Sequence record: MK327932.1
Source: Escherichia phage vB_EcoM_G2248
Reading direction: 5' to 3' (one strand)
Length of the DNA stretch: 64,000 bases
The notes beneath the pieces were generated by a model that ran no database searches, was not told where the DNA came from, and worked only from the letters and a program-made list of their open reading frames with translations. Of this stretch, positions 31,995-46,566 are shown piece by piece (positions within the stretch are counted from its first letter, which is position 1; each line of letters starts with the position of its first letter). A program made the translations under genes and the position numbers.

Positions 31995-33581
31995 ATGAAA
32001 ACTACCAAAGAACTGATGGAAAAATGGTCCCCGCTGCTGGAAAACGAAAAACTGCCGGAAATCGCAACTGCGTCTAAGCAGAAACTGGTTGCTAAAATTC
32101 TGGAATCTCAGGAAGCGGATTTTGCTGTAGACCCGATCTATAAAGATGAAAAAGTTGTTGAAGCATTTGGCGGCTTTATCACCGAAGCAGAAGTTGCTGG
32201 CGACCACGGCTATGATGCATCCAAAATCGCCGCAGGTCAGACTACTGGTGCAATCACCAACGTAGGTCCGGCTGTTATCGGTATGGTTCGCCGTGCTATC
32301 CCTAACCTGATCGCATTTGATATTTGTGGCGTTCAGCCGATGAGCACCCCGACTAGCCAGATCTTTGCAATCCGTTCTGTATACGGTGCTGATCCGCTTG
32401 CTGTTGGTGCTAAAGAAGCATTCCATCCGATGTACTCTCCGAATGCATTCCATAGCTCTCTGGCTGCTAAAGGTGCAACTGTAGGTTCTCCGCTGGGTAC
32501 GGCATTCCAGAAACTGGCTATGCAAAGTGCAATTCAGGCTGGCGATATCGTTCATCACACCTTCGCAGAAACTGGCATTGCATATCTGCAAAACGTTACC
32601 GCAGAAGCAGTAACTCCGCAGAAAGCAGGGCAGGAAAGCGAAGATGAAGTAGTAATGAAACTGATGGAAGAATGTAAACTGGTCGAAATCGCTTTCGGTA
32701 TGGCAACTTCCATCGCGGAAATTCAGGAAGGCTTTAACGGTTCTCAGAATAACCCGTGGGCTGAAATGTCAATGCGTATTGACAAACAGGTTGTTGAAGC
32801 GAAATCTCGCCAACTGAAAGCCCGTTACTCTATCGAAGTTGCACAGGATCTGCGTGCTGTACACGGTATGGACGCTGACGCCGAACTGAATGCTATTCTG
32901 GCTAACGAAGTTCTGCTTGAAATCAACCGTGAAATCGTTGATGTAATCAACTTTACCGCTCAGGTTGGTAAAACTGGTATGACTCAGACCGTTGGTTCTA
33001 AAGCTGGTGTATTTGACCTGCAAGACCCGATCGATACTCGCGGTGCTCGTTGGGCTGGTGAATCCTTCAAATCTCTGATCTACCAGATCGACAAAGAAGC
33101 TGCTGAAATCGCTCGTCAGACTGGTCGCGGTGCGGGTAACTTTGTTATCGCTTCCCGTAACGTTGTAAACATTCTGGCGTCTGCTGATCAGGGTATCAGT
33201 CTTGCTATGCAGGGTGCTGCAAAAGGTCTGAATACCGACACCACTAAAGCTGTTTTCGCTGGTGTTCTGGCTGGTAAGTACAAAGTATTCATCGACCAGT
33301 ATGCTCGTCAGGACTACTTCACCGTAGGTTACAAAGGCGACAACGAAATGGATGCTGGTATCTACTATGCTCCGTATGTTGCTCTGACTCCGCTGCGTGC
33401 AACTGACCCGCAGTCTTTCCATCCGGTTCTGGGCTTCAAGACTCGCTATGGCATCGGCATCAACCCGTTTGCTGACAGCAAATCCCAGGCGCCGTCCGCT
33501 CGCATCACCTCCGGTATGTTGAGCAAAGAAAGCGTAGGTAAAAACGCATACTTCCGCCGTGTATGGGTTAAAGGTTGCTAA
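31995..33581 (+). CDS. 23: gp23 major capsid protein
   Basis: 528 aa; N-terminus MKTTKELMEKWSPLLENEKLPEIA resembles T4 gp23 precursor. Confidence 0.95.
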   Translation: MKTTKELMEKWSPLLENEKLPEIATASKQKLVAKILESQEADFAVDPIYKDEKVVEAFGGFITEAEVAGDHGYDASKIAAGQTTGAITNVGPAVIGMVRRAIPNLIAFDICGVQPMSTPTSQIFAIRSVYGADPLAVGAKEAFHPMYSPNAFHSSLAAKGATVGSPLGTAFQKLAMQSAIQAGDIVHHTFAETGIAYLQNVTAEAVTPQKAGQESEDEVVMKLMEECKLVEIAFGMATSIAEIQEGFNGSQNNPWAEMSMRIDKQVVEAKSRQLKARYSIEVAQDLRAVHGMDADAELNAILANEVLLEINREIVDVINFTAQVGKTGMTQTVGSKAGVFDLQDPIDTRGARWAGESFKSLIYQIDKEAAEIARQTGRGAGNFVIASRNVVNILASADQGISLAMQGAAKGLNTDTTKAVFAGVLAGKYKVFIDQYARQDYFTVGYKGDNEMDAGIYYAPYVALTPLRATDPQSFHPVLGFKTRYGIGINPFADSKSQAPSARITSGMLSKESVGKNAYFRRVWVKGC

Positions 33582-33743: not shown

Positions 33744-34052
33744 ATGCACACACTCATAAAGACCAAAACTCCAGCCGTTTCCGCACCCGTAAACTGTATT
33801 CATAGTTCTCACATGACCGTGCAAATGTCAGTTGAAGGGGTAAGGGAAGGGCAAAAAGTCATTGCGGAAGCCTTGTTAGAAGGTTCTCTAGATGGTAAAG
33901 GTTGGTTCACTATTTCAGAATTGAAAGCTGATGGTAATGAATATGCAACTGATGGTGGAGCGTTTGAAACATTATGGTCGTTTATTAGGGCAAATGTAAA
34001 ATCAGTATCTAATGATTCTACTGTAACGGTGTATCTTGCTAAACGGGGGTAA
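33744..34052 (+). CDS. hypothetical 102-aa protein (late accessory module gene 1)
   Basis: AAGGGGA RBS; no recognisable motif. Confidence 0.5.
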   Translation: MHTLIKTKTPAVSAPVNCIHSSHMTVQMSVEGVREGQKVIAEALLEGSLDGKGWFTISELKADGNEYATDGGAFETLWSFIRANVKSVSNDSTVTVYLAKRG

Positions 34053-34056
34053 TTAT

Positions 34057-35769
34057 ATGAAGCTAAATCCACAAGCTATCATTAGTGCTGGTTCCGTGAG
34101 TGGTGGTTGTTCTGGTGGTATTCAGATCGGGACTAACGTACCTAGCGGAATTAAAAATACCCATCGTTTCGAAAATGAAGAAGCGAGGGATACATATTTT
34201 ACCGAACATTTTCCAGAATTAGATAGACTAAAAACAATTATTGTTTGCGGTGCTAAACTTCAATTATGGACTGGTAATACAGCACAATCCCCGTATGATA
34301 ATTCTAAATGGGTCGATATGACCTGGGTGATTCAGGGCGAACAAGGTATTACTGGAGAGAAAGGCGAAAATGGACGTGGAATTGCTAGAATCGCAGCACA
34401 ATTATCTGACGATGATCGAAACTGGACTCTAGAAATTACATATACAGACTCAACGCAAGAATCTTTAGTATTTCCTGTTCCAGATGTATTAGCAAACTTC
34501 GTACAGCGTTTAAACGCAATCGAAGTAAAATGGACAACAACCAATCCAATCAACAATCTCGGGGTCGCTATATCACCCGGACGCTATCCGGTAGGTGATG
34601 CAACTTATGGAAAACCTCCAATGATGGCGAATAAGGGGTCCGCAGATGTATATGTCGTTGATGGTAGCGTTATTCAGGTGGTCCGTTCTGTTGATGGTGG
34701 CGTTTACACTCGTATCCGACACAATGGAGAATGGAGTGAATGGAACTCTCAAAACGATGGTGGAATTGGTGGCGGTGGTTTAACTGGTGATCAGGAAGCT
34801 ATGCTAACAAGTCTAAGCACTCGTTTACCGGAGACGTCACCAGAAATACTGGATTTAAACACTCTGACTAAACAAGGTCGCTTTTGTTATTTTGAAGGGA
34901 CCGCAAACCGTCCGAATGGAGCACAAGCACACGGTTCAGTAGACGTACATTCGTGTAAAAACTATGTGTTACAGATTGCAACCAGTGTAGAAGGGGTAAT
35001 GTATCATCGCTCATACACAAAGAAAACTGATTCATGGTCCGAATGGACACAGATCAGCGATCATACTGGAGGGGCGACAATATATGAGTTCCCTCGTGTG
35101 TCTAGTGTGTTCACGACCGCACAAAGTTTAATCGAGGCAACAACACCGGGTACTGGAGGCGGGGCATTTTATATTCCGTGGAAATATGTCATTCATGATA
35201 ACTATGGGTGTACACCACGGATATCAGAGCCAGTTAGACAGAACGATGCCGATCATTGGTGGGTGTGTCCGAAATATGGAAGTTATGACATGGAATTGAT
35301 TTTTGATGTTGGTTTTATTAAAACACCACAAACAATTCCTCCTATCTTTACAATCACGGTATGGCATCGATTAACCGACGGTCGAGAACAACAAGCAGCA
35401 CGTTATCAGATTGGATTAGATGTATCACAAAAAAACCAAACATCAAAATCGCTAAAATTGAGAATGACTCACATTACATCGGGAGAGATGTTCCGGTGGC
35501 ATGTTTCATTTAATGGTGGTAGTTGGTCGGCAAGCGATAACCCAGATGTTTCCCTTGTACCATTCCGAACATTGCTGATGGTCGATGAAGTGGAACACGA
35601 TTCAGCAAAACGAATTGGTTCGTTAGCATACAACACATGGGCGAATTTTCAAGCTAGAAAAGGTCTGGCGGCGACTGTAAGTGAAGACGAATTAAAAAAA
35701 GCTCGTCTTAATGCCGTTAAATGGAGCGCATCAATCGAAAGTGTTGATGCATCTCAGGACGACCAATAA
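34057..35769 (+). CDS. hypothetical 570-aa fibre-like protein with short collagen-like Gly-X-Y stretch
   Basis: start at ATG 34057 (GGGGG RBS; ORF track starts at 34036); GEQGITGEKGENGRG collagen-like triplets and GGIGGGG linker. Confidence 0.55.
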   Translation: MKLNPQAIISAGSVSGGCSGGIQIGTNVPSGIKNTHRFENEEARDTYFTEHFPELDRLKTIIVCGAKLQLWTGNTAQSPYDNSKWVDMTWVIQGEQGITGEKGENGRGIARIAAQLSDDDRNWTLEITYTDSTQESLVFPVPDVLANFVQRLNAIEVKWTTTNPINNLGVAISPGRYPVGDATYGKPPMMANKGSADVYVVDGSVIQVVRSVDGGVYTRIRHNGEWSEWNSQNDGGIGGGGLTGDQEAMLTSLSTRLPETSPEILDLNTLTKQGRFCYFEGTANRPNGAQAHGSVDVHSCKNYVLQIATSVEGVMYHRSYTKKTDSWSEWTQISDHTGGATIYEFPRVSSVFTTAQSLIEATTPGTGGGAFYIPWKYVIHDNYGCTPRISEPVRQNDADHWWVCPKYGSYDMELIFDVGFIKTPQTIPPIFTITVWHRLTDGREQQAARYQIGLDVSQKNQTSKSLKLRMTHITSGEMFRWHVSFNGGSWSASDNPDVSLVPFRTLLMVDEVEHDSAKRIGSLAYNTWANFQARKGLAATVSEDELKKARLNAVKWSASIESVDASQDDQ

Positions 35770-35783: not shown

Positions 35784-36716
35784 TTGATGACTGACATTAA
35801 GGCAAAAATTAGCCAGTTGCAAACTGATTTTGTTCAAGGCGAGATCACACATTTCACCGGAAACGAATCAAATGCTCTAATGGAAAGTGATGTTGAAAGA
35901 ATTTCAAATTCAATCAACACTCAATTAATTGATCCTGTAATTGATTTTGTTATTGCTTGTGATGAAGTAATAGCAGAAACAGCAAGCGAGGCACATCAAG
36001 CGGCAGAAGTAGCAAAAAATACTGCTGACGTGGCAGACCGAACGGCAGGTCAATCCATGAGTATGGCAACTGATGCAATTGCTAAAGCTACTACCGCTGA
36101 ATCAGAAGCAACACGAGCACACACCCGATTAGATGAACTGAATATTCCAACAATGCCTAATCTTGATAACCAGACATGGAACTGGCTATCAAGATCTTTT
36201 GATAGTGTCAGTATTAGAGTTGGTAATGGTGTAACATTAGCTGACTCTAATACTAAACCACATATCACATGGACACCAATTCGCCAAAACTTTGAAACAG
36301 GTAGCTATTACGTTGAAGGACGTTTTGAAGCTCGTTTTAAAGTAATGGTTCGAGATTGGATTCAGGGCGAAGGTGGTAATATTGTTTATCTGGCAGGAAT
36401 TGATAGTTTAGCGTCATTTAACGGTTGGATTTATCTGGATGGTTTATCATCTACGGATACGATGAAAACAACCAATATTCAGATTAACGCATACACACAA
36501 AAAGACTCGCAAGTAGTATTTGGCGCTAGTGCTGTTGCGTCTATGTCAGATTCAACAAAAGTTAAAATGGCGTTATTCGTAAACGTAGGAACAGATAGAT
36601 TTGATCAATATACAGATCCGGTCTATGTCGACCTTGTTATGACATTCCAGCGTGACGCTAGCGGTAATTTTGGTTTTGGTACGTTGTTCCCAGAATTAAC
36701 CCCATCTTCTTCATAA
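35784..36716 (+). CDS. hypothetical 310-aa protein, N-terminal helical / C-terminal beta-rich (possible fibre tip or adhesin)
   Basis: complete ORF, tightly linked downstream of the fibre-like gene. Confidence 0.5.
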   Translation: MMTDIKAKISQLQTDFVQGEITHFTGNESNALMESDVERISNSINTQLIDPVIDFVIACDEVIAETASEAHQAAEVAKNTADVADRTAGQSMSMATDAIAKATTAESEATRAHTRLDELNIPTMPNLDNQTWNWLSRSFDSVSIRVGNGVTLADSNTKPHITWTPIRQNFETGSYYVEGRFEARFKVMVRDWIQGEGGNIVYLAGIDSLASFNGWIYLDGLSSTDTMKTTNIQINAYTQKDSQVVFGASAVASMSDSTKVKMALFVNVGTDRFDQYTDPVYVDLVMTFQRDASGNFGFGTLFPELTPSSS

Positions 36717-36878: not shown

Positions 36879-36885
36879 ATTTTAT

Positions 36886-36918: not shown

Positions 36919-36919
36919 G

Positions 36920-36927: not shown

Positions 36928-36964
36928 TGATATATCCATTAAGGCAAATACAGGATTCATAAAC

Positions 36965-38206
36965 ATGACTCATATTTTTACTGAACTGTTGCGGGAATCT
37001 ACTTCCTCAGTAGCTAACCAGACAGCGCGACCGCAACTATTATCACTGACTCGCGCGGTAAACAACCTGATTTTCTCTGATCTGGTGGCAATCCAACCAA
37101 CCGATCAACCAGTATCTGCATTGTACGGCCTACGTTATCTTAATCATGATGGTCAGATGACGTTCCGGACCGCTGCAACCTATGGCGGTGCTGTTGGTGA
37201 TCGTTCTGATATTGAAGAATTTTCACAAGAAAAATCCTATGATGTAGGAGCAAAATTTAAATCAGGCGATGTTGTATACGAAGTTGTAACCGCTGGTACA
37301 GTAGGTGCAGATGCAGCCACGCCCGAAGCCGCAATTTTTAAAGGTGTGATGACAAATCAGATTCGCTTCTATAGCGACTGTGCACCTGTAGAATACTTTG
37401 AAGATAAAAACACAGAGATCTCATCAACGTCAATGCAGTTTGATAAGTGGCAGGTTAATGTAGGTTCTCGTAAATTGAAAACCTCGTTCACCACTGAATT
37501 AATGCAGGATCTTGAAGCAAGCCAAATCAACTCTGAAAACTCTGTAATTGATCTTCTGGCTACTGTCGCTTCCGAAGAGATCAACAAAGATATTATACAG
37601 AAGTTGATCACTGTATCAACTCGCTATAAAATTAAAGGGATCACCCCTGATGGCGTACTTTCTCTAGTTAGCGTTCAGGACGCACCAAAACAAGCTCGCG
37701 AACTTTACCGCTATGCTTGCGAAATGAGCAATCAAATGTTGCGTACTTCCTCCTTTGCTGGCACATACGTTTTGGCGTCTTCTCGCGTGGTTGGTCTCCT
37801 GCAATCTACCGGATGGATGGAAGAAACCGACAATGCTCTAAGCGAAGGCCGTCTACGCTGTGGTCTGGAAGTGTACGCAGATACGGTAACTCCGTTTGAT
37901 TATATGGTCGTTGGCTGTAAACACATGATCGGTGATATGGAGAGTGTAGGTTCTCTTTTCTACTCCCCATACACAGAAGCCGATGGCGCTGGCGCATATA
38001 AGAGCGTAATCGATCCTAACAGCTTCCAACACCATGTAGCTATTATGAATCGTTATTCACTCTCTGTCAACCCATACACAGCAAAAGTTGACCAAGAAGA
38101 ACACCAGGTCATCAAGGGTGACGAGTGGGCTAAACTTGCTGGACGTTCAGAAATGTCCTACATTTTAGGTATCGAACTGCCACCGCTTGAGATTGACAAC
38201 TCTTAA
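36965..38206 (+). CDS. 24: gp24 capsid vertex protein
   Basis: start at internal ATG 36965; N-terminus MTHIFTELLRESTSSVANQTARPQLLSLTRA resembles T4 gp24 and is gp23-paralogous. Confidence 0.85.
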   Translation: MTHIFTELLRESTSSVANQTARPQLLSLTRAVNNLIFSDLVAIQPTDQPVSALYGLRYLNHDGQMTFRTAATYGGAVGDRSDIEEFSQEKSYDVGAKFKSGDVVYEVVTAGTVGADAATPEAAIFKGVMTNQIRFYSDCAPVEYFEDKNTEISSTSMQFDKWQVNVGSRKLKTSFTTELMQDLEASQINSENSVIDLLATVASEEINKDIIQKLITVSTRYKIKGITPDGVLSLVSVQDAPKQARELYRYACEMSNQMLRTSSFAGTYVLASSRVVGLLQSTGWMEETDNALSEGRLRCGLEVYADTVTPFDYMVVGCKHMIGDMESVGSLFYSPYTEADGAGAYKSVIDPNSFQHHVAIMNRYSLSVNPYTAKVDQEEHQVIKGDEWAKLAGRSEMSYILGIELPPLEIDNS

Positions 38207-38794
38207 CTAAATATCTAACCAAGACAAGTCAGATCCGCCCAAGATTTTTTCGACGGCGGATCTATTTTCTTGATGATATAAGTTAAAACATGGTATCCCA
38301 TGTCTACGGGCAACATAAACAGCAATTCGAGTTCCGCCCGAAACAATACCATTAACTTCTTTCGCCCAAAATAACACACAATCTACAGGATCATCAAGTG
38401 TCTCACCTAAGACTTGAGCAACATTTCTAGAAAACAGATTTTGCATGTATAGCGGTATAGAACGAGGATTATCATAAACGTGTTCTAATTCATCCATCGC
38501 CAGATTCTTTTGCTCTAGAGTCTGCCACGCAATCACATCACGACCATTATGCTTATGATCGTAAAACTTCCAATTTGGAATGAAAATTTTTCTATAATCT
38601 GGGTCGTAATACTTCATGAAAGCATTGTCCATACCGTAAGCCCCTCCAGAATGCGCTACAACGCGATTTTCTGACAATACCCTCCCAATGGCACTAGCCA
38701 TTATCAAAATGTCGTTAGGCGCTTTTCTAGAGCCTATAAGAGCACATCTACGAAGTGGTTTTACTCCAAATAGATCTTGTAACTGGTCAAACAT
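38207..38794 (-). CDS. DprA/Smf-like Rossmann-fold protein (SLOG superfamily)
   Basis: ALIGSRKAPNDILIMASAIGRVL..VVAHSGGAYGMDNAF and later EVNGIVSGGTRIAVYVARRHGIPCF match DprA core signatures; start at ATG 38792-38794 behind GGAGGAA RBS. Confidence 0.55.
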   Translation of the reverse strand: MFDQLQDLFGVKPLRRCALIGSRKAPNDILIMASAIGRVLSENRVVAHSGGAYGMDNAFMKYYDPDYRKIFIPNWKFYDHKHNGRDVIAWQTLEQKNLAMDELEHVYDNPRSIPLYMQNLFSRNVAQVLGETLDDPVDCVLFWAKEVNGIVSGGTRIAVYVARRHGIPCFNLYHQENRSAVEKILGGSDLSWLDI

Positions 38795-38915
38795 AATATT
38801 TTCCTCCATAGAAAGCAGTATCATATTACAAGTTAATAACAAATACAAGTATCCGCGTAGCGGAAGCGAGCACAGCGAGCATTAAAACACTTCCAGTAAC
38901 TGATTAATAAATGTT

Positions 38916-38958
38916 CGAAACAAATTTTTATTATTCTATAAGATAAGTCTTCGTTTTG
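38916..38958. repeat. ~44-bp imperfect palindromic intergenic element, copy B
   Basis: cgaaacaaatttttattattctataagataagtcttcgttttg; near-identical to copy A (519-562). Confidence 0.6.
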
Positions 38959-39074
38959 TTCATAATTTAATCATACATGTAAAAACTACACAAAAAGGAT
39001 ATCGCTTCGCGAACTCCTACGGAGTATAACATTTGTGTTACAATATGTAGTGATTAATAATTAACCAAAGATAC

Positions 39075-39109
39075 ATTTTCTATGTTCTAAAGATCTTTCT
39101 TCGTTTTGG
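39075..39109. repeat. palindromic element copy C (right half conserved: ttctaaagatctttcttcgttttgg)
   Basis: matches right arm plus ~20 nt of flanking sequence of copies A and B. Confidence 0.5.
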
Positions 39110-39175
39110 TCACAATTTAATCAAACAGTATTAATATTGTCCACATGTAAACTAAATCATGATGATTTGTGGATA

Positions 39176-39205
39176 CAAAAAAGCCGCCCCGAAGGACGGC
39201 TAATG
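39176..39205 (-). terminator. rho-independent terminator (minus strand) after the 145-aa gene
   Basis: reverse complement reads agccgtccttcggggcggc followed by TTTTTT. Confidence 0.65.
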
Positions 39206-39209
39206 TTAA

Positions 39210-39647
39210 TTATTTGTTGATAACGATCTGATTTCGGCGAATGGTAACATTGCTCTTAGAGATGATCAGATCATCCGGCACTACGTTCGTTTTGTATGGC
39301 TGGAAGCGAACAAGCATCTGATTGCGTTTAGAACCTTCCTTAATCTTGATTTCCATCTGGATATTGTTGCCTACGTGAGCAATAGCAATTTGACCTTTGT
39401 TCTCATAGACCCACTTGCTGGTAACGTCGCCAGCGAAAGCCTTAATAACTTGCAATGCTTCGTCGTATGCAGTAGAGCTATGAACGTTCAGAAGACCAGC
39501 CGTCGCCAGACGTGAGCAAGTGATCGCTGGAGATTGCCAAACATCAACATTGATTTGCTCAATCAGAGCAACACCGCCATGATCAACTGCTTTGAATGCT
39601 TCAAACATTGCTTTTTTCATTGCTACGTGGTTTTTACGGAATTTCAT
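39210..39647 (-). CDS. hypothetical 145-aa protein
   Basis: complete ORF with own terminator; no recognisable motif. Confidence 0.5.
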   Translation of the reverse strand: MKFRKNHVAMKKAMFEAFKAVDHGGVALIEQINVDVWQSPAITCSRLATAGLLNVHSSTAYDEALQVIKAFAGDVTSKWVYENKGQIAIAHVGNNIQMEIKIKEGSKRNQMLVRFQPYKTNVVPDDLIISKSNVTIRRNQIVINK

Positions 39648-39693
39648 AATTAGTCACCTCTATTGATTAGTTATTCAGAATATTAATTACAAA

Positions 39694-39972
39694 TCAGGAC
39701 ATTGCCCGTTTGAATGCGTCCATTATAACAGTGTTTTTCGGCTTGTCAACACGTTTTTGAACTTTATTTTTAATTTTTTTGTTGATGTGGTGTTTACGAT
39801 AAACAACCTTTTCACGGTTGGCGTAAGCCTCGCGTGCATCTTTCACCATCAACCATGCCTTAGCCGCATCTTGTCCGCTGATCCCGCCAATCTTCTTAGC
39901 AATATCAACAAAATTAAGACCGTGGTCTTCTCGTAGCATGTAAACCATTAACGCTGTTTTCCTGTCCATCAC
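39694..39972 (-). CDS. hypothetical 92-aa protein with possible helix-turn-helix
   Basis: segment LNFVDIAKKIGGISGQDAAKAW resembles an HTH; basic C-terminus. Confidence 0.4.
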   Translation of the reverse strand: MMDRKTALMVYMLREDHGLNFVDIAKKIGGISGQDAAKAWLMVKDAREAYANREKVVYRKHHINKKIKNKVQKRVDKPKNTVIMDAFKRAMS

Positions 39973-40166
39973 TTCGCCTCATTGACGATTAACAGGATAG
40001 TGATCAGTACCGGAAACTGGATCATGACAGTACCAAAAAACCGGATAAACGCATTTTCTGACTTCCACACATTACATGCTGCTAGCTGATAGCACAATGT
40101 TGCAACCAGAGCAAGAATATACACAGAAAGTGGTGTAACTTCGATCAGTCGGGAAATCTCATTCAT
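39969..40166 (-). CDS. small hydrophobic (membrane) protein, 65 aa
   Basis: two predicted hydrophobic helices; overlaps downstream gene by 4 nt. Confidence 0.4.
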   Translation of the reverse strand: MNEISRLIEVTPLSVYILALVATLCYQLAACNVWKSENAFIRFFGTVMIQFPVLITILLIVNEAK

Positions 40167-40332
40167 ACTTCACCTCATACATTCATAAACACAACAACGA
40201 ATAGAACAGTAACAGTTATTAAAGCCATTTTCAACCCCATATTCATAATATTTTCTTCGCCTCACTATGACAGTAGCATGTCGATGCGTGCCATTATAGG
40301 CATCTAAATCGCTCTGTCAAGCGCAAAAAAAC

Positions 40333-40360
40333 AAAAAAGCCACCCCGAAGGATGGCTTAA
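40333..40360 (-). terminator. rho-independent terminator (minus strand) after hoc-like gene 1
   Basis: reverse complement: GC hairpin with ttcg loop followed by TTTTTTGTTTTTTT. Confidence 0.6.
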
Positions 40361-40363
40361 TGG

Positions 40364-41593
40364 TTAAAGTGGCGGAGCTTCGCGTATACGAAGAACTCTT
40401 TCTAGTGTCTCTCGATCTAAGTGATGGAATTTGCTTGCATTGTAGCTATAACCATTTCTGGATTCCATACAAATACAATCGCCGTATTTTTCCTCTGCTG
40501 CCGCGATCGTCTCCAGGTCTTTGGCATATCGACTACGGGAATATACTTCTCTGTGTCTCCATTCTAAGTTTAACTCATTGAATTTAACAATCTCGTCAAA
40601 TACCCACCAGCCAATATAGATAAACGACGTTCTACGCCACGGAAGCGGATGGACATAACGGAACATAGTATGAAGAGACTCGACTATGTTCATCTGGCAT
40701 TTGGTACTGATTACAAATCCTACCTCAACACGAGTTCCGTCAATGGTTTGAAAGAGTTTAGCTATACACCAGAAAGTAGCATGATCGTCCTGTGTCGCTC
40801 TTTCTTTGTATAGTGTGCCGTTAGGTAAAATTGAAAATCCCTCTGATATCTCTCCTATGGTGTTTCCTAATAATACCTTATCTTGTCCTTCTCGTTGTAG
40901 ATACCAGTTGTATTGGATGGATAGCGGTGGCATATCGCTATTATCGCCTACAATGTCCTCTGACACAAAATACTGCAATATGATTGGATAACCTATTGCT
41001 ACGGTGTTATCTGCGTTCACATCGCGATCTACGCTCATTTTAGCGAGCATTACCTTAGAAGATGTTTTGTCGATTGAGTTTTCCGATTCACCCCAGACCG
41101 AGACAGTATACACCCCGTTATCGTCATCGCTAAATTCGTGTATTGTTAATGTGTCGCTTGTGTTGTCTAATACTCGACCGTCTTTCTCCCAGCGATAATG
41201 GAGAGTATATGTGTCTGACGGTGATTTTCCTGTGGAGTAACTAACCGTTGTTCGTAGGTCAACATCGGTTTTTGTCTGTACATAGAAATGAGTAGGTTCT
41301 GTTATTTTTACAACTAGTTCGGCCTCATCCATCCGCACCGCGTTACTGGTTGCTTCGTCTCCTGTGTCGGTATCGCGCACGGTTACTTTGTAAGACCCTG
41401 CATTTTCACTTGTTGCGTCAGAAATAGTTAACGTGTTAGTGTCGCCTTCTTGCGATTTATCGTCTTTTGTCCATGTATATGTTAGATTGCTTGGTGCAGG
41501 GTCATCCCCAGAATCCAAAGTCACCGTTAATGTGAACGTGTCACCAGCGAGAAAACATCTTTTATCCGATTTTAATTTAACGGTAAATGCCAT
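40364..41593 (-). CDS. hoc: Hoc-like capsid decoration protein, ~3 Ig-like domains
   Basis: Ig-type periodicity (YxWxKDG.., GxYxCxV); C-terminal YVHPLPWRRTSFIYIGWWVFDEI segment shared with neighbouring paralog. Confidence 0.7.
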   Translation of the reverse strand: MAFTVKLKSDKRCFLAGDTFTLTVTLDSGDDPAPSNLTYTWTKDDKSQEGDTNTLTISDATSENAGSYKVTVRDTDTGDEATSNAVRMDEAELVVKITEPTHFYVQTKTDVDLRTTVSYSTGKSPSDTYTLHYRWEKDGRVLDNTSDTLTIHEFSDDDNGVYTVSVWGESENSIDKTSSKVMLAKMSVDRDVNADNTVAIGYPIILQYFVSEDIVGDNSDMPPLSIQYNWYLQREGQDKVLLGNTIGEISEGFSILPNGTLYKERATQDDHATFWCIAKLFQTIDGTRVEVGFVISTKCQMNIVESLHTMFRYVHPLPWRRTSFIYIGWWVFDEIVKFNELNLEWRHREVYSRSRYAKDLETIAAAEEKYGDCICMESRNGYSYNASKFHHLDRETLERVLRIREAPPL

Positions 41594-41611
41594 ATAATAC
41601 TACTCCATATA

Positions 41612-41642
41612 ACAAAGACCGACCCGAAGGCCGGTCTAACTA
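41612..41642 (-). terminator. rho-independent terminator (minus strand) after large hoc-like gene
   Basis: reverse complement: AGACCG-gccttcgggt-CGGTCT then TTGTT. Confidence 0.5.
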
Positions 41643-41644
41643 TT

Positions 41645-44185
41645 TTAAAATAACTGTGTTCCGTCAACCAGATAACCGTTACGAGATTCAAGTACATGCG
41701 TATTGCTGTAATGATGCAGCGATGCCGCGATAGTCTCGATCTCATCTGGATATTTGGTATGCTCAAAATCTTCCAGCCAGTTTAATCCAGATTTAAGGCA
41801 TCGTTCGATCTCATCCATGACCCAATACCCTTGATATTGGAACGAGGTACGACGCCACGGGATGGGATGCACATAACGTTTAAGTGTCGCTTTAGTAAAC
41901 ACAATGCGAACTTTTTCTGTGTGTGCAACATGGCCTTCGTCGTCCTTGACGACCGCGTAATATGTTGCTTCATGGTTCTCTTTAGTCAACTCACCATGAG
42001 GGATAGTCAAAACTTTTTGAGTTGCCCCAGGAATTGTTTTGTCTATGCCTCCTTTGACTTTATGCCACTGCCAACTAACTACTTTATCATCATCGACGTG
42101 TTCAGCGTGCGCTTCCAGCTTAACGTCTTGCTCTTGACCTTCTTTTGCCACAACATCAACCGGATGTTTGATAATGTTGATGTTTTGATGTGGAGCCATA
42201 GTGATTTCTGCCGGATTAGTTTCTACAGTTGTTTCTGCGGCTGTAATAACGGCAGTATAACGACCTACGTCAGAAGGTTTAACATGCTCGATGATAAGAG
42301 TTTCCGAGTTTTCCCCTGGAATAATAACACCATCTTTTTTCCACTGATAAGTTGGTTTTATGCCAATCGTATTAGTGGCTTGAGCGTGTAAAATAACTCT
42401 CTGGTTGAGGTTGACGTGAGCATCTTGCGGATGTATTGTAATTCGAGTATCGTTTTCAACAATCGACGGATCGTCGGTAATGATAACCCTTGCCGGATTG
42501 GTCATTTGCGATACACGATGTTCACCAAAACCCGCTGATACACGGCAGGTGTATACACCAGATGACGTTATCTGAGCGTGATCTTCACCATAAGAATTTC
42601 GTTGTTCGACACCAGCCGGGAAAAGATCTTTACCGTCTTTAAACCAGCGATAACGAACAGGTAGCGCATCATTCGAGGTTGCCTCAACTGAGATGGTCCA
42701 TACTCCACCAGAACGAACACTAATAGCGTGTGGCTGTTTAGTGATGTTCATAGTGGATTTGGTGGCGTCTACAGAAACCTGAACTTCATTGGAATCTTTA
42801 ACGATGCGATGATTCGAGATACCCATAGAAACCACGCATTTATAACGACCCTCGTCGGCTTTAGTGATAGCAGAAAAATGTAATGAATCCGAAGTTTTAT
42901 TTGGGATCAACTCATTATCCTTATACCACTGATAATCTAATTTGAAATGTTCATAATTAGACGTTGCTCGACAAGTAAGAGTTTGAGATGAACTCACACG
43001 AACGTTATTGATCGGCTGTGGTTGTTGGGTGATCGTGATCACCGGAGATGACCCGACCAGAAGTGTTGCTACCTCTGATTCGGTGATCTGATTATTTCCA
43101 TATGTAATTCGAGCTTTGAATTTAGCCTCATTAACATCATTGGTCGCCGGAATGATTTTTAACTCTTTTTCCGTTTCTCCAACGATAGGAGTAAATTCAC
43201 CTTCTTCTTTTTTCTGGCGTAGCCACTGTATTTTAACATTGGTGTAATTTGTTACATAATCAACACTTAGTACCGCTGGCGTTAATGCCGGAACATTAGT
43301 GTTTAATGGCTGTCGGGAAATTCGGAAATATGAACGTCCAGACACAACAACATTACAATCTTTAGAATAAACTACAGTACCCCCTTGACGAACTTCGAGA
43401 CGCCAGATCCCAGCATCGGCTTGTGTTACATACGGGATGATCATTGCTGTACCGTCTTGATCGATGATCTTTTTCCCGTTATGAATCCATGTGTACTCAA
43501 TATCACGAGTTGCATCATCGGACCTTACCGTAACTTCTAAATCCAAACGAGCATCTTCTAATACGGTGACAGTATCAGAATAATGTTCTTCGATGTGAAT
43601 TACTGGCGGTTTATCGTTTTCTTCCACAACAACCGGACTAATACGGTAATATGCTCGTGCGTCCTGGATAACAAATACTTTACAAGTATAATTGCCGAAG
43701 TCTTCACGAGATACCCTATCAACGTGTACGTTTTTAGCTTGTACTTTGTTGGGGTCAATCATAACATGATCTTTATACCAGATTGTATCAAATTGATAAC
43801 CGTCTTCGACAATCGGAGTGGCAAAAACATCAAGTGCTTCGCCAATTCGTTTGTAGATGTAAGTCGGAGATTGGTCTTGTGGTGCGATAAATGGAATACG
43901 CTCAACCAAAATCGGATCAATATCCACATAATCCAGTGGATTCTCTTTCAATTTGACACGCGCGGTATATGTGCCAAATTGTTCTTGAGTCAATTCGGCA
44001 ATGTACAGAGATTGGTCTGGTTCTGCAACTTGATCCGCTGGCACACTCTGACCGTTTAGCTTCCATTCTACGATATAGTCTTTAAAATCTGATGTACTTA
44101 CTACCAATTTAAGAACAAGTTCATGTCCCACTGATGCGTGGACAGGACCAGTAGTTTGATGTAAAATATTGATTTTATCAGACAT
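41645..44185 (-). CDS. giant Hoc-like protein with ~8 tandem Ig-like domains
   Basis: repeated YxW(F/K)KDG.. and G.YTC.V motifs across 846 aa; C-terminal YVHPIPWRRTSFQYQGYWVMDEI matches the paralog. Confidence 0.7.
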   Translation of the reverse strand: MSDKINILHQTTGPVHASVGHELVLKLVVSTSDFKDYIVEWKLNGQSVPADQVAEPDQSLYIAELTQEQFGTYTARVKLKENPLDYVDIDPILVERIPFIAPQDQSPTYIYKRIGEALDVFATPIVEDGYQFDTIWYKDHVMIDPNKVQAKNVHVDRVSREDFGNYTCKVFVIQDARAYYRISPVVVEENDKPPVIHIEEHYSDTVTVLEDARLDLEVTVRSDDATRDIEYTWIHNGKKIIDQDGTAMIIPYVTQADAGIWRLEVRQGGTVVYSKDCNVVVSGRSYFRISRQPLNTNVPALTPAVLSVDYVTNYTNVKIQWLRQKKEEGEFTPIVGETEKELKIIPATNDVNEAKFKARITYGNNQITESEVATLLVGSSPVITITQQPQPINNVRVSSSQTLTCRATSNYEHFKLDYQWYKDNELIPNKTSDSLHFSAITKADEGRYKCVVSMGISNHRIVKDSNEVQVSVDATKSTMNITKQPHAISVRSGGVWTISVEATSNDALPVRYRWFKDGKDLFPAGVEQRNSYGEDHAQITSSGVYTCRVSAGFGEHRVSQMTNPARVIITDDPSIVENDTRITIHPQDAHVNLNQRVILHAQATNTIGIKPTYQWKKDGVIIPGENSETLIIEHVKPSDVGRYTAVITAAETTVETNPAEITMAPHQNINIIKHPVDVVAKEGQEQDVKLEAHAEHVDDDKVVSWQWHKVKGGIDKTIPGATQKVLTIPHGELTKENHEATYYAVVKDDEGHVAHTEKVRIVFTKATLKRYVHPIPWRRTSFQYQGYWVMDEIERCLKSGLNWLEDFEHTKYPDEIETIAASLHHYSNTHVLESRNGYLVDGTQLF

Positions 44186-44264
44186 GTTATATCCTCTTTT
44201 TAATTGTATAACGGAACTACAATTAAAATCATAACAAATATTTCACAACTTTCATCACCCAAAA

Positions 44265-44993
44265 TTACTTGAGTGTGTGAAATTGGCTATGTTTGGTTTC
44301 CCGTACCTTGACAGACCCATCACGTTTGATATAATAGATCAGTGACTTGAGGGTGTCGTGTACATACGCGTGAGGGAAACGCTCTGGATACTTCTTCCAA
44401 TCTGGAGTATTAACGATCCAGTCGAAAATCCACCACGGGCATGAGTAGTAACCACGACCGCCACCGATCAAACAAATGGTTGGACGGAAACCAGTAAGAT
44501 CGCAAAATGAATCAGTATCATGTGCAGGAGAACGATGCTCTGCTTCGTCAGAGAAAATGTTTGCTACCGGAGATTCCACTTTAACTTCCGGTACAACCAC
44601 AATTTCAACTGGTACTGTGTGTGGTTCGGCTTCTTCTACAACTGTAACTGTAATTGTAATTGGTTCTTCTTTTTGTTCTGGTTCTTTCATTGCTTCAACC
44701 AGAGACGGATCAACTTCGTCGAATACCACTTTATCATCTGCGGTATCTGCTGCCAGAATAAGGTCGTTAATGCTGGTTCCCTCTTCCTGGGTTTCTTCTT
44801 CCATTTCGGATGCCAGTTTAGTTAATTCTGTTTCTACGAACTCGATCATGTTCTCTAGTGATAGCGTCTTTTTGACCTTGATGTCAAATTGTTTTGCGTA
44901 GTCCGCTAATTCTGTTTTAGCGGCTTTCTGTGCTTCTTTGTCGTCGGACGCCGCAATAGCGCGGAGTTCTTCGAAATATTCTTTATCAAACAT
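44265..44993 (-). CDS. hypothetical acidic protein in the inh position (possible prohead protease inhibitor)
   Basis: 242 aa, acidic N-terminal half, next to hoc-like genes and divergent from uvsW; positional only. Confidence 0.3.
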   Translation of the reverse strand: MFDKEYFEELRAIAASDDKEAQKAAKTELADYAKQFDIKVKKTLSLENMIEFVETELTKLASEMEEETQEEGTSINDLILAADTADDKVVFDEVDPSLVEAMKEPEQKEEPITITVTVVEEAEPHTVPVEIVVVPEVKVESPVANIFSDEAEHRSPAHDTDSFCDLTGFRPTICLIGGGRGYYSCPWWIFDWIVNTPDWKKYPERFPHAYVHDTLKSLIYYIKRDGSVKVRETKHSQFHTLK

Positions 44994-45020
44994 GTTATTC
45001 TCCTGATTGGGGGTGTTTGT

Positions 45021-45028
45021 ATAAATAT
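45021..45028 (+). promoter_or_regulatory. late promoter box TATAAATA upstream of uvsW
   Basis: exact TATAAATA ~35 nt upstream of ATG 45064. Confidence 0.55.
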
Positions 45029-45063
45029 TTGTATACTGTATTTATTGAGTGAGGCTATTCGCT

Positions 45064-46566
45064 ATGCAAGATATTAAAATTCACTTTCTGAACTACTCCC
45101 ATGTTCAAATTGAATGTAGTGATTCAATTTTATTAGAAATGCGAGATTATTTTAGTTTTGAAGTCGAGGGAGCGCGGTTTCAAAAAAGATTTAAGTATGG
45201 CGGTTGGGATGGGCGTATTCGTCTTTTAGACTACAACGGAAAGTTGCCTATCGGCCTAACTAAAACCGTTGGTATCTTCGCTAAAAATATGGGTTATTCT
45301 GTATGGGTAGATCCTCGCTTATTCGAAAAAGAACAGGTTACAGAAGAAGAGATCACAAAATGGTGTAACGACTTAGAATTATATTCCGGTGCTAACAGGA
45401 TCACCCCGCACTGGTATCAATCAAAGGCTGTCTTTGAAGGTATTCATCATAAACGCCGTATGTTAGTTTTGCCTACGTCCGCTGGTAAATCTGCGATTGC
45501 TTGTATGTTGTCTCGTTGGTACTTAGAGAACTACGAAGGGAAAGTGCTGATCATCGTTCCTACCACGTCGCTAGTGCTGCAAATGCGTGATGATTTTGTT
45601 GATTATCGCCAGTTTCCGTATGAAGCAATTCATACTATCATGAGCGGTACTAGTAAACACGTAGGTGATCGCCTGATCGTTGTTAGTACGTGGCAATCAG
45701 CATGTAAACAGCCGAGTGAATGGTTCCAGCAATTTGGGATGGTTATTGTTGATGAATGTCACAAGGCCACTGCTAAAAACCTGCTAAACATCGTTACTGA
45801 TATGGATCATTGCCAGTTTAAGATCGGTATGACTGGTTCCCCTCGTGACGGGAAAGCTAACATGATGCAGTATGTCGGTCTTTTCGGTGATATTTCTAAG
45901 ATCGTGAGTATTGACCGCCTGATGGAAGAAGGTCAAGTGACGAAACTGAAAATCAACTGTCTTTTCCTTCGTTATACCGATGAGGAATGTAGCGCGGTTA
46001 AGGGTAGAGAATATGCGGAAGAGATCAAGTATATTACGTCTAACCCACGACGTAATAAGTTTGCTTGTAATTTGGCGCTAAAACTCGCTAAGAAGGGCGA
46101 AAACGTATTCCTGATGTTCCGCAATACTAAGCACGGAAAACTTATGTATGACGCGTTACAGAAGGTACACGACAAGGTTTATTATATTGACGGTGGAGTT
46201 AAGACAGAAGAACGTGATGAATTTAAGAAATTAGCGGAAGGGGAAACAGGGATCATTTGTGTTGCTTCCTATGGTGTTTTCTCTACTGGTGTTTCAATTA
46301 AGAATTTGCACCATGTTATTTTCGGTCATCCCGTGAAGGAATCAACTATCGTTCGTCAGAGTATCGGTCGTGCATTGCGTAAACATGGTTCGAAAGACAT
46401 TGCAACGGTCTGGGATCTTATCGATCATTTGGCAGTTAAGACAAAGAGCAAGAATGCTAAGAAACAGTTTAGTCACCTTAATTATGCTCTTAAACATGCC
46501 CTGGAAAGAATAAAAATTTACAACACAGATCGATTCGAATATGTAACGAAAACTATAGAGATTTAA
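45064..46566 (+). CDS. uvsW: UvsW RNA-DNA / DNA helicase
   Basis: N-terminus MQDIKIHFLNYSHVQIECSDS..WDGRIRLLDY resembles T4 UvsW; Walker A PTSAGKS, DECH box; start at ATG 45064. Confidence 0.85.
   Translation: MQDIKIHFLNYSHVQIECSDSILLEMRDYFSFEVEGARFQKRFKYGGWDGRIRLLDYNGKLPIGLTKTVGIFAKNMGYSVWVDPRLFEKEQVTEEEITKWCNDLELYSGANRITPHWYQSKAVFEGIHHKRRMLVLPTSAGKSAIACMLSRWYLENYEGKVLIIVPTTSLVLQMRDDFVDYRQFPYEAIHTIMSGTSKHVGDRLIVVSTWQSACKQPSEWFQQFGMVIVDECHKATAKNLLNIVTDMDHCQFKIGMTGSPRDGKANMMQYVGLFGDISKIVSIDRLMEEGQVTKLKINCLFLRYTDEECSAVKGREYAEEIKYITSNPRRNKFACNLALKLAKKGENVFLMFRNTKHGKLMYDALQKVHDKVYYIDGGVKTEERDEFKKLAEGETGIICVASYGVFSTGVSIKNLHHVIFGHPVKESTIVRQSIGRALRKHGSKDIATVWDLIDHLAVKTKSKNAKKQFSHLNYALKHALERIKIYNTDRFEYVTKTIEI

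What the first reader, a model, noticed from the sequence alone, without database searches (positions are those of the whole stretch)
40364..44185. Tandem Hoc-like paralogs including a giant ~8-Ig-domain version
Two adjacent minus-strand genes encode proteins built of Ig-like repeats (YxWxKDG and GxYxCxV periodicity) ending in a shared C-terminal segment (YVHP(L/I)PWRRTSF..G(W/Y)WV.DEI..), consistent with a common capsid-anchoring domain. One is Hoc-sized (409 aa), the other 846 aa, each with its own terminator. Two decoration proteins with the same anchor would compete for the same capsid sites, giving potential for mixed or condition-dependent capsid display.
Basis: partly seen in the sequence, partly recalled or inferred. 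Interest (0 to 1): 0.55.

Follow-up and report, generated by a model that had tools for sequence, protein, structure and literature searches.

The report
Long and short Hoc capsid fibres
This RB49-like coliphage carries two adjacent genes for head-decorating Hoc fibres, a normal 3-Ig one and a giant 8-Ig one with the same type of capsid anchor; this arrangement is already known in other phages, but here it proves to be ancestral, and the well-studied phage RB49 has lost the giant copy by deletion.

Summary
Two adjacent minus-strand genes encode a 409-aa and an 846-aa Hoc. The window is Escherichia phage vB_EcoM_G2248 (Krischvirus), where both are annotated "hypothetical". The small protein is the ortholog of RB49 Hoc (crystal structure 3SHS). 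The large one has eight Ig-like domains. Both end in a domain homologous to the T4 Hoc capsid-binding domain, with contact residues and the ESRNG loop conserved. The Hoc-binding loop of gp23 is identical to RB49's.

It is not a new kind. The same gene pair is deposited for JK32, Brandy, SSG23, SFHK24 and UPWr_E1. Giant-plus-short Hoc pairs were described for phages Muldoon and PG7 (Fokine 2023).

New here:
- 53 of 58 Krischvirus records, including RB49, carry a deletion scar of the giant hoc between inh and hoc. The two-Hoc state is therefore ancestral.
- A distant relative keeps the same pair.
- The two genes form a sharply bounded divergence island: 52-77% nt identity against 92-99% in the flanks. 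Synonymous sites are saturated and dN/dS is about 0.1, which indicates old alleles exchanged by recombination under purifying selection.

Co-display and competition on the capsid remain inferred. Interest is moderate.

The parts
41645..44185 (-). Long hoc gene (hocL), 846 aa, 95.7 kDa, pI 5.6: eight Ig-like domains plus the C-terminal Hoc capsid-binding domain.
   Evidence: The sequence is identical to QBO62327.1 of phage vB_EcoM_G2248.
41891..44185 (-). Region of hocL encoding the eight Ig-like domains (residues 1-765).
   Evidence: Iterated HMM domain table. AF2 beta-sandwich domains. Foldseek matches to multi-Ig strings. This is the most variable part among 14 alleles, with 60-74% mean pairwise identity per domain.
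41648..41890 (-). [quoted passage not shown]
   Evidence: Aligns to T4 Hoc 264-366 with domain E = 4.1e-10. Mean pairwise identity among 14 alleles is 90%. YVHPIPWRRTSFQYQGYWV.DEI and ESRNGY are invariant or nearly so.
40364..41593 (-). Short hoc gene (hocS), 409 aa, 46.7 kDa, pI 4.8: ortholog of RB49 Hoc, with three Ig-like domains plus the capsid-binding domain.
   Evidence: Matches 3SHS at E = 6e-116 over residues 1-304, and T4 Hoc 291-363 at E = 1.8e-9. About 65% aa identity to RB49 Hoc. Identical to QBO62326.1.
40367..40678 (-). [quoted passage not shown]
41616..41637 (-). Intercistronic GC-rich UUCG hairpin, 8 nt after the hocL stop and about 22 nt before the hocS start. Its U-tract is weak. 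Probably a leaky terminator or an mRNA 3'-stabiliser.
   Evidence: dG -16.6 kcal/mol, z -3.1. The stem sequence differs but pairing is kept in JK32, UPWr_E1 and L013, always with a UUCG loop. The left arm is deleted in RB49.
40337..40358 (-). Intrinsic terminator after hocS: 9-bp stem, UUCG loop, then TTTTTTGTTTTTTT.
   Evidence: Conserved in RB49 and all relatives examined.
44186..44264 (-). Leader between inh and hocL, with the RBS AAGAGG. It contains no consensus late promoter. It is conserved in RB49-type phages, where it precedes the deletion scar.
44265..44993 (-). inh (prohead protease inhibitor), the upstream gene in the same orientation. Near-consensus late promoter motifs (TACAAATA, AATAAATA) lie just upstream at 45026-45046.
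   Evidence: phrog_1051, E = 7e-76. Motif positions.
32994..33050 (+). Part of gene 23 encoding the Hoc-binding loop of the major capsid protein (GSKAGVFDLQDPIDTRGAR, equivalent to T4 gp23 G326-R344).
   Evidence: Alignment to T4 gp23 gives 17 of 19 identical, with P337 and R344 kept. The loop is identical in RB49 gp23. The binding-site definition comes from PMC10385173.

Best explanation
**What the genes are.** They are two functional Hoc genes, hocL and hocS. They arose by an old duplication in the RB49-like (Krischvirus) lineage and are probably co-transcribed late with inh.

**Shown by sequence.**
- Each protein is a monomeric fibre: an N-terminal string of Ig-like domains (8 in the long one, 3 in the short one) on a homologous C-terminal alpha/beta domain.
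- This domain matches the T4 Hoc domain that docks at the centre of a gp23 hexamer.
- Its contact residues are conserved in both proteins.
- The gp23 docking loop is conserved.

**Inferred.**
- Both proteins use the same roughly 155 hexamer-centre sites of the prolate head, one molecule per site.
- Virions would then carry a mixed, two-tier coat. Extrapolating from the 18-nm four-domain T4 Hoc, the short fibres would be about 18 nm and the long ones about 40 nm.
- The ratio would be set by relative expression and by the affinities of the two anchors (44% identical). hocL is the promoter-proximal gene and a conserved hairpin precedes hocS.
- By analogy with T4 and RB49 Hoc, the Ig arrays give weak, reversible adhesion to bacterial surfaces or mucus glycans, and an acidic, dispersing surface.

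**Evolution of the locus.**
- The cassette exists as several old, deeply diverged alleles that are moved between nearly identical genomes by recombination in the conserved flanks.
- The long gene is dispensable for plaque formation. One roughly 2.3-kb internal deletion removed it in the ancestor of RB49-type phages.
For: **Identity as Hoc**
- PHROG Hoc family for both proteins.
- hocS matches the RB49 Hoc crystal structure.
- Both C-domains match the T4 Hoc C-domain.
- Contact residues listed in PMC10385173 are conserved in the alignments.
- The locus lies between inh and the 24.x genes, as in T4 and RB49.
- Both proteins are acidic, pI 5.6 and 4.8.

**Same capsid site**
- The gp23 loop G326-R344 is conserved.
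- It is identical between this phage and single-Hoc RB49.

**Both genes functional**
- dN/dS is about 0.1 in every domain, including an unsaturated comparison (SSG23 vs JK32 hocL: dS 0.30, dN/dS 0.11).
- Thirteen 90%-identity clusters (142 member sequences) are all 841-847 aa long.
- The same pair (841 aa and 395 aa) occurs in a distant relative, L013, with UvsW 72% and gp24 64% identical.

**Old paralogy**
- The C-domains form two sister clades, 44-50% identical to each other against 32-40% to the T4, CC31 and VR26 Hocs.

**Loss in the RB49 type**
- The inh-hoc spacer of RB49 contains the hocL leader, its first 33 nt and its last ~125 nt at 91-92% identity.
- Phi1-type phages keep 108 nt of the 5' end with the same 3' junction.
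- Census of 58 records: 41 short scars, 12 long scars, 5 intact.

**Cassette exchange**
- Nucleotide identity falls from 92-99% to 52-77% exactly over the two genes.
- pS is about 0.7 there, against dS 0.29-0.35 in inh.

**Transcription**
- There is no TATAAATA on the minus strand before either hoc.
- The intercistronic hairpin is kept by compensatory changes across alleles.
Against: - There is no expression, proteomic or structural evidence for either protein in this phage or in any two-Hoc Krischvirus. The source paper (PMC6563267) and the SSG23 paper do not mention Hoc.
- The beta-strands of the hocL C-domain were modelled with low confidence (pLDDT < 50 at 771-786 and 831-846). The fold of the anchor therefore rests on sequence homology.
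- One T4 contact tryptophan (W309) is tyrosine in hocL, and W306 is tyrosine in both proteins. Affinities could differ substantially.
- The majority of isolates lack hocL, so its contribution cannot be essential.
- The promoter assignment is weak: there are only 7-of-8 matches to the late consensus upstream of inh.
- The C-domain tree is a neighbour-joining tree on about 80 residues without support values.
Confidence: 0.72

Rival explanations
1. Only the short Hoc decorates the capsid. On this reading the long protein is not a virion component, or is made in negligible amounts, and it is on its way to being lost, as in RB49.
For: 53 of 58 Krischvirus records have deleted it. No dedicated late promoter was found. 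In G2248, SSG23, Brandy and UPWr_E1 it is annotated only as hypothetical.
Against: - dN/dS is about 0.1 in all eight Ig domains and 0.05 in the anchor.
- Length is strictly conserved (841-847 aa) in 13 divergent clusters.
- It is retained in a relative with only 60-72% identity in neighbouring proteins.
- The anchor domain is the most conserved part, at 90%.
- It is the promoter-proximal gene of the pair.
Confidence: 0.1
2. Both proteins are on the capsid but do not compete. The two diverged anchors (44% identical) would prefer different classes of hexamers, for example vertex-proximal or cap hexamers against those of the cylindrical mid-section. This would give a patterned coat rather than a random one.
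For: T4 Hoc itself shows orientation preferences at vertex-proximal hexamers (PMC10385173). The Felixounavirus Hex-Dec binds only the hexamers at facet edges (PMC12609058). The two anchors differ at the positions equivalent to T4 W309 and Q354 and in the helical segment.
Against: All residues reported to touch gp23 near the hexamer centre, including the ESRNG loop that contacts all six subunits, are the same in both anchors. Nothing in the sequence identifies a hexamer-class determinant.
Confidence: 0.13
3. The long Hoc is not a paralog formed in this lineage. It would instead be a chimera in which a horizontally acquired array of Ig domains, of the kind found in Felixounavirus hexamer decoration proteins, was fused to a Hoc anchor.
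For: The best solved-structure match for Ig domains 5-7 is the Bas63 Hex-Dec protein 9ncf_S (E = 6e-22) and a related Felixounavirus 'tail protein' 9c2d_S. These score above T4 Hoc. tblastn gives 28-31% identity to Felixounavirus proteins over up to 75% of the length.
Against: - Identity to those proteins is only about 29%, no higher than between Ig domains within the two Hocs (up to 33-34%).
- The last two Ig domains plus the anchor of hocL are collinear with hocS.
- The anchors are sister clades.
- The same 8-domain architecture is present in the distant L013 lineage, so any transfer would be ancient.
Confidence: 0.05

Closest known systems
RB49 Hoc (crystal structure 3SHS, Fokine et al. 2011) and T4 Hoc (C-domain solved on the capsid, 5VF3/8T1X; Fokine et al. 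2023, PMC10385173)
   Same: hocS is the direct ortholog of RB49 Hoc: E = 6e-116, the same 3 Ig + anchor plan and the same locus. Both window proteins share the T4 Hoc anchor domain, its gp23-contact residues, the ESRNG loop and an acidic pI.
   Different: hocS is only about 65% identical to RB49 Hoc although the flanking genes are over 92% identical at the nucleotide level. hocL has eight Ig domains instead of three. RB49 itself retains only a deletion scar of hocL.
Two-Hoc phages described in Fokine et al. 2023: Serratia phage Muldoon (1174 aa with 10 Ig domains, plus 314 aa with 2 Ig domains) and Enterobacter phage PG7 (233 aa, plus a 511-aa anchor-lipase fusion)
   Same: One genome encodes two proteins carrying the Hoc capsid-binding domain, one of them a giant multi-Ig fibre and the other a short fibre. 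The implied sharing of hexamer-centre sites is the same.
   Different: The genus is different and the sequences are unrelated outside the anchor. Here both anchors are C-terminal and both cargoes are Ig strings. Here the evolutionary history (old duplication, later deletion in most isolates, allelic cassette exchange) can be read from the genomes.
Deposited Krischvirus genomes with the same gene pair: Shigella phage JK32 (both annotated 'head outer capsid protein'), Enterobacteria phage Brandy, Shigella phages SSG23 and SFHK24, Escherichia phage UPWr_E1
   Same: The order is identical: inh, then the 846/847-aa gene, a hairpin, the 408-410-aa gene and a terminator. Flanking DNA is about 93% identical.
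   Different: The hoc alleles of the window are only 64-71% (long) and 61-68% (short) identical in protein to theirs. There are at least three deeply diverged cassette types.
Felixounavirus Hex-Dec (Bas63 9ncf_S; Sf14 gp20)
   Same: It is a monomeric decoration protein at hexamer centres, with a string of 1-4 Ig-like domains of variable number and an acidic surface. It is the best solved-structure match for hocL Ig domains 5-7.
   Different: Its capsid-binding domain is N-terminal, larger and topologically distinct from the Hoc anchor (PMC12609058). It is not homologous to the hocL anchor.

Membership tests
Hoc (highly immunogenic outer capsid protein) family of T4-like phages | A capsid-binding domain homologous to T4 Hoc residues ~281-376. 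| tested here: met
   phmmer against PDB sequences: hocS 311-385 aligns to T4 Hoc 291-363 (E = 1.8e-9) and hocL 740-844 to 264-366 (E = 4.1e-10). Hits to phrog_1149, phrog_14282 and phrog_11091 'Hoc-like head decoration' cover the same residues.
Hoc (highly immunogenic outer capsid protein) family of T4-like phages | Conserved gp23-contact residues (Y293, H295, W309, W310), the D313-R357 pair and the E355-S-R-N-G359 loop. | tested here: met
   - hocS reads YVHP...GWWV.DE...ESRNGY, with all of these present.
- hocL reads YVHP...GYWV.DE...ESRNGY, with the W309 equivalent being Y.
- The residue list comes from PMC10385173; the alignments.
- These positions are invariant in 14 hocL alleles, except the W309 equivalent.
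Hoc (highly immunogenic outer capsid protein) family of T4-like phages | A string of Ig-like domains attached to the anchor. | tested here: met
   Pfam Ig_3, Ig_2 and I-set above the gathering score. The iterated HMM finds eight domains in hocL. The AF2 model shows eight beta-sandwiches. hocS 1-304 matches the 3-Ig RB49 crystal structure.
Hoc (highly immunogenic outer capsid protein) family of T4-like phages | Genomic position in the head-gene region next to inh. | tested here: met
   The gene order in the window, reading from gene 24 towards uvsW, is gp24, DprA-like, 24.3-like, hocS, hocL, inh, uvsW. The locus is the same in RB49 and CC31.
Hoc (highly immunogenic outer capsid protein) family of T4-like phages | Binds as a monomer at the centre of gp23 hexamers of the expanded capsid. 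| not testable with these tools
   Only indirect evidence is available: the gp23 docking loop is conserved with T4 (17 of 19 residues) and identical to RB49's.
Hoc (highly immunogenic outer capsid protein) family of T4-like phages | Non-essential for phage growth. | tested here: met
   This holds for hocL only. 53 of 58 deposited, plaque-isolated Krischvirus records carry an internal deletion of it. It was not tested for hocS.
Two-Hoc phages (Muldoon / PG7 type, Fokine et al. 2023) | Two separate genes in one genome, each encoding a Hoc capsid-binding domain, with different cargo length. | tested here: met
   for this window. The published description is in PMC10385173 section 3.6. A tblastn with the anchor alone finds 1610 places in 1352 phage records, so second copies or remnants are common.
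Two-Hoc phages (Muldoon / PG7 type, Fokine et al. 2023) | Both proteins present on the same virion. | not testable with these tools
   No proteomic or structural data were found for any two-Hoc Krischvirus.

The most novel reading that the evidence does not exclude
**The reading.** The hoc cassette of RB49-like phages would be a recombining, serotype-like locus. It would specify a two-tier capsid coat, long 8-Ig fibres over short 3-Ig fibres, sharing the hexamer-centre sites.
- The ratio of the two fibres would be set by a conserved, leaky intercistronic hairpin.
- Ancient allele classes would be maintained by balancing or frequency-dependent selection, for example from antibody pressure on this highly immunogenic protein or from different mucus or bacterial glycan ligands.
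- Loss of the long fibre in the RB49-type majority would be an adaptive or isolation-biased switch, not neutral decay.

**A natural test.** Closely related natural pairs would allow the contribution of a long Hoc fibre to adsorption, mucus retention or immune clearance to be measured directly. About 93% nt identity was measured between the window and the other two-Hoc phages, and about 95% over the aligned part for RB49-type phages.
Probability: 0.25. Interest if true: 0.55.

Novelty: new member of a known kind. Interest (0 to 1): 0.4.

Why it matters
**Background.** Hoc is the standard display platform on T4 capsids. It is also the best-known example of a phage Ig-like protein proposed to mediate adherence to mucus and bacterial surfaces. 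RB49 Hoc is the crystallographic model for the family.

**What this adds.**
- The RB49 lineage originally had two Hocs sharing one anchor type, and RB49 itself carries the scar of a lost 8-Ig fibre. This changes how the RB49 locus should be annotated: RB49p168.2, Phi1 ORF168.1, phrog_32100 and phrog_19377 are pseudogene remnants.
- It provides natural, closely related phages with and without a long Hoc for functional tests.
- The sharply bounded, synonymously saturated divergence island indicates that capsid-surface variation in these therapeutic-candidate coliphages is generated by swapping old alleles.

**Limits.** The basic phenomenon, a giant and a short Hoc in one genome, is already published. 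The same gene pair is already in GenBank. This is an incremental result rather than a surprising one.

Tried and rejected
1. **Late promoters.** I looked for T4-type TATAAATA directly upstream of each hoc. There is none on the minus strand within 40100-45100. Only 7-of-8 matches occur, two of them upstream of inh. Independent transcription of each gene could therefore not be supported.
2. **Recent positive (diversifying) selection as the cause of the high divergence.** Rejected. Synonymous sites are saturated (pS about 0.7) and dN/dS is about 0.1.
3. **Recent tandem duplication of Ig domains within hocL.** Rejected. The domains are at most 33% identical to each other, and the 8-domain length is fixed in all alleles.
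4. **CC31 'hoc-A/hoc-B' as an earlier two-Hoc precedent.** Rejected. These are two pieces of one short gene, a 40-aa ORF overlapping a 232-aa ORF.
5. **Literature searches.** Searches for Krischvirus two-Hoc reports, for an RB49 hoc remnant, and in the G2248, SSG23 and PMBT63 papers found nothing on this locus. The 'hoc' searches are polluted by 'post hoc'. The library lacks most subscription-journal papers, so absence there is weak evidence.
6. **Structure of the anchor.** The AF2 model did not give a confident fold for the beta-strands of the hocL anchor. The Foldseek search returned only generic multi-Ig proteins and says nothing about the anchor.
7. **Extra ORF between genes 23 and 24.** Pfam and PDB searches of the 577-aa ORF gave nothing usable.

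Full report
**Identity of the window**

The two proteins match QBO62327.1 and QBO62326.1 of Escherichia phage vB_EcoM_G2248 exactly. Both are annotated "hypothetical protein". G2248 is an RB49-like Krischvirus with a prolate head, described by Korf et al. 2019, a paper that does not mention Hoc (PMC6563267).

Over window 20000-40000 the closest records in the phage collection are UPWr_E1, SSG23, Brandy and JK32, at about 93% nt identity (89% for JK32) over 97-100% of the query. RB49-type phages cover only about 85% of it.

**Check of the observation**

- ORFs of 409 aa (40364..41593, minus strand) and 846 aa (41645..44185, minus strand) are present as stated.
- They lie between inh (44265..44993; phrog_1051, E = 7e-76) and the 24.3-like and DprA-like genes that precede gene 24. 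This is the canonical hoc locus.
- The two proteins are significantly similar (E = 3e-27).
- The similarity is collinear over the last two Ig domains and strongest in the last ~80 residues (44% identity, E = 2e-23).

**Domain architecture**

For the 846-aa protein:
- Pfam finds Ig_3, Ig_2 and I-set domains well above the gathering scores.
- An HMM iterated from one domain finds eight Ig-like domains in the same register in every ortholog examined.
- An AlphaFold2 model built on 14 orthologs (mean pLDDT 80.9) shows eight beta-sandwich domains followed by a C-terminal segment with two helices. The strands of that last domain are of low confidence.
- Foldseek matches the model to multi-Ig strings such as contactin, Robo and the DSCAM 8-Ig fragment.

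**The anchor**

- Both C-termini align to the C-terminal domain of T4 Hoc (domain E = 1.8e-9 and 4.1e-10).
- Fokine et al. 2023 solved that domain on the capsid. They list the residues that touch gp23: Tyr293, His295, Tyr304, Trp306, Trp309, Trp310, Gln354 and Tyr360. They also describe the conserved loop Glu355-Gly359 and the Asp313-Arg357 pair (PMC10385173).
- In the alignments the short protein has Y, H, F, Y, W, W, D, ESRNG, Y at these positions. The long one has Y, H, F, Y, Y, W, D, ESRNG, Y.
- The gp23 loop that forms the docking site (T4 G326-R344) is 17 of 19 identical in this phage. It is identical to that of RB49.
- Both proteins are acidic, like other Hocs (pI 5.6 and 4.8).

That test does not refute the interpretation.

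**What is already known**

- The same gene pair (846/847 aa, then 408-410 aa) is present in JK32, where both are annotated as head outer capsid protein. It is also present in Brandy, SSG23, SFHK24 and UPWr_E1.
- Fokine et al. 2023 explicitly describe phages with two Hocs. Serratia phage Muldoon has a 1174-aa Hoc with 10 Ig domains and a 314-aa one. Enterobacter phage PG7 has a short Hoc and an anchor-lipase fusion.
- A tblastn with the anchor alone finds 1610 places in 1352 phage records, so second anchors or their remnants are frequent.
- Gaprivervirus VR26, for example, has a second Hoc-like gene next to hoc.

The finding is therefore a new member of a known kind.

**What the comparison adds: the RB49 deletion scar**

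- In RB49, the type phage with a single Hoc, the 264-nt spacer between inh and hoc is not anonymous DNA.
- It holds the conserved leader of the long gene, its first 33 nt, and directly joined to them its last ~125 nt. The latter encode ...KYPDEIDTISASLHHYSNTHVLESRNGYLVDD. Identity to JK32 is 91-92%.
- Phi1, GEC-3S, ECD7 and the Makalu phages have a longer version. It keeps the first 108 nt and has the same 3' junction.
- The RB49 form differs from the longer version by a further 75-nt deletion between ACAGAA direct repeats.
- Among 58 Krischvirus records, 41 have the short scar, 12 the long scar and 5 the intact gene.
- The small ORFs annotated there (RB49p168.2, Phi1 ORF168.1) are these remnants. 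So are the "unknown function" families phrog_32100 and phrog_19377, which matched the two ends of the long protein.
- The two-Hoc state is therefore ancestral. One deletion of about 2.3 kb, followed by further decay, produced the familiar single-Hoc RB49 type.
- The intercistronic hairpin lost its left arm in the same lineage.

**Age and maintenance**

- A search of 5.8 billion proteins found 13 clusters at 90% identity (142 member sequences) of full-length orthologs. All are 841-847 aa and 59-96% identical to the window protein. The next hits are unrelated Ig-repeat proteins.
- The most divergent ortholog lies on a 152.8-kb T4-like contig (L013). Its UvsW, gp24 and Inh are only 72%, 64% and 60% identical to those of the window. 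It still shows inh, an 841-aa Hoc, a UUCG hairpin and a 395-aa Hoc.
- In a neighbour-joining tree of anchors, the long and short types form two sister clades. They are 44-50% identical to each other against 32-40% to the T4, CC31 and VR26 anchors. This fits an old duplication within this lineage. The tree rests on about 80 residues and has no support values.
- Among alleles the anchor is the most conserved part (90% mean pairwise identity). The Ig domains are at 60-74%, with domains 3 and 4 the most variable.

**A divergence island**

- Against SSG23, UPWr_E1 and JK32, nucleotide identity is 92-99% on both sides. It falls to 52-77% from about 40200 to about 44000-44200, which is exactly the two hoc genes.
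- Nei-Gojobori estimates give pS of about 0.7 (saturated) in both genes, against dS of 0.29-0.35 in the adjacent inh.
- dN/dS is about 0.05-0.2 in every domain. In the unsaturated SSG23-JK32 pair, dS is 0.30 and dN/dS is 0.11.
- The pattern is therefore not recent adaptive change. It indicates old alleles under purifying selection, placed in nearly identical genomes by recombination in the conserved flanks.
- The long and short genes of each phage show parallel relationships, so the pair tends to move as one cassette.
- The RB49 scar is mosaic. Its 5' end resembles the UPWr_E1 allele and its 3' end the JK32 type.

**Expression signals**

- A strong intrinsic terminator follows the short gene (40358..40337). 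A conserved, perfect sigma-70-type promoter for the next genes follows it (40320..40293).
- A UUCG hairpin lies between the two hoc genes (41637..41616; dG -16.6 kcal/mol). Its stem sequence differs in each allele class while pairing is kept.
- Its U-tract is weak, and absent in UPWr_E1. I read it as a leaky terminator or a transcript-stabilising element, not a full stop.
- No consensus late promoter precedes either hoc. The nearest near-consensus motifs are upstream of inh.
- Co-transcription of inh, hocL and hocS is thus the most economical reading. It is an inference.

**Mechanism proposed**

- Shown: both proteins have the sequence features of Hoc, and the capsid site is conserved.
- Inferred: both occupy hexamer centres, one molecule per hexamer, about 155 sites on a T4-type prolate head. 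Virions would then carry a mixture of fibres of about 18 nm and about 40 nm. The lengths are extrapolated from the 180-Å four-domain T4 Hoc of PMC10385173.
- Also inferred: the ratio depends on expression and on the relative affinities of the two anchors.
- The function of the Ig arrays is assumed by analogy with T4 and RB49 Hoc to be weak adhesion to bacterial or mucosal glycans, plus electrostatic dispersion.
- The Ig domains 5-7 are most similar, among solved structures, to the Felixounavirus hexamer decoration protein Hex-Dec (9ncf_S, E = 6e-22). That protein uses a different, N-terminal anchor. The match suggests a shared pool of Ig modules among coliphage decoration proteins. At about 29% identity it does not indicate recent transfer.

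**Rivals**

- The long protein is not assembled into virions. This is unlikely given purifying selection and conservation.
- The two anchors partition between hexamer classes instead of competing. This remains open.
- The long protein is a chimera that acquired its Ig array horizontally. This is not favoured.

None of these can be settled without virion proteomics, in-vitro competition or cryo-EM.

**Verdict**

The feature is a new member of a known kind. Its added value is the demonstration that RB49-type phages are deletion derivatives of a two-Hoc ancestor, and that the hoc pair is an old, recombining allelic cassette. Interest is moderate (0.4).

Noticed in passing
window 33582-36796 (ORFs 34036..35769 + and 35784..36716 +): The spacer between gene 23 and gene 24 is 3215 nt here and holds two extra late-strand ORFs. 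One is about 570 aa with a collagen-like GEQGITGEKGENGRG stretch; its JK32 homolog is annotated 'tropomyosin-like'. The other is 310 aa with a weak alanine-zipper hit. RB49 has only 740 nt there, matching both ends and one middle fragment, which suggests a second deletion in the RB49 type. The insert is present in the same phages that keep the long hoc.
   Followed up: partly
L004:2832-3029 (RB49p168.2); L006:2179-2343 (Phi1 ORF168.1): These small 'hypothetical protein' ORFs, and the PHROG families phrog_32100 and phrog_19377 ('unknown function'), are remnants of the deleted long hoc gene. They are not genuine genes.
   Followed up: yes
window 44308-44335 (+): A perfect sigma-70-type promoter (TTGACA, 16 nt, TG-extended TATAAT) lies inside the 3' part of inh on the opposite strand, pointing towards uvsW. 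It is conserved in RB49, JK32, SSG23, UPWr_E1 and Brandy. It could drive early transcription of uvsW or an antisense RNA to inh.
   Followed up: partly
window 40293-40320 (-): A perfect sigma-70-type promoter (TTGACA, 16 nt, TATAAT) lies immediately after the terminator of the short hoc gene. It is conserved in all relatives, including the distant L013. It marks the switch from the late hoc unit to an early unit (24.3-like genes).
   Followed up: partly
window 31995-33581 (+), gp23 residues 132-251: gp23 is 500/528 identical to RB49 gp23. 26 of the 28 differences lie at residues 132-251; the other two are at 63 and 77, and the region from 252 to 498 has none. This looks like a second local patch of capsid-surface variation next to the variable hoc cassette.
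   Followed up: no
L012:1386-3785 (phage VR26): In Gaprivervirus VR26 a second Hoc-like gene (287 aa, anchor 48% identical to that of the VR26 hoc) sits beside hoc in the opposite orientation. It is preceded by a collagen-repeat 'tail fiber protein'. This is another way of reusing the Hoc anchor.
   Followed up: no
L011:2938-3749 (phage CC31): The genes annotated hoc-A (40 aa) and hoc-B (232 aa) in CC31 overlap. They look like one short hoc split by a frameshift or a mis-called start, not two paralogs.
   Followed up: no
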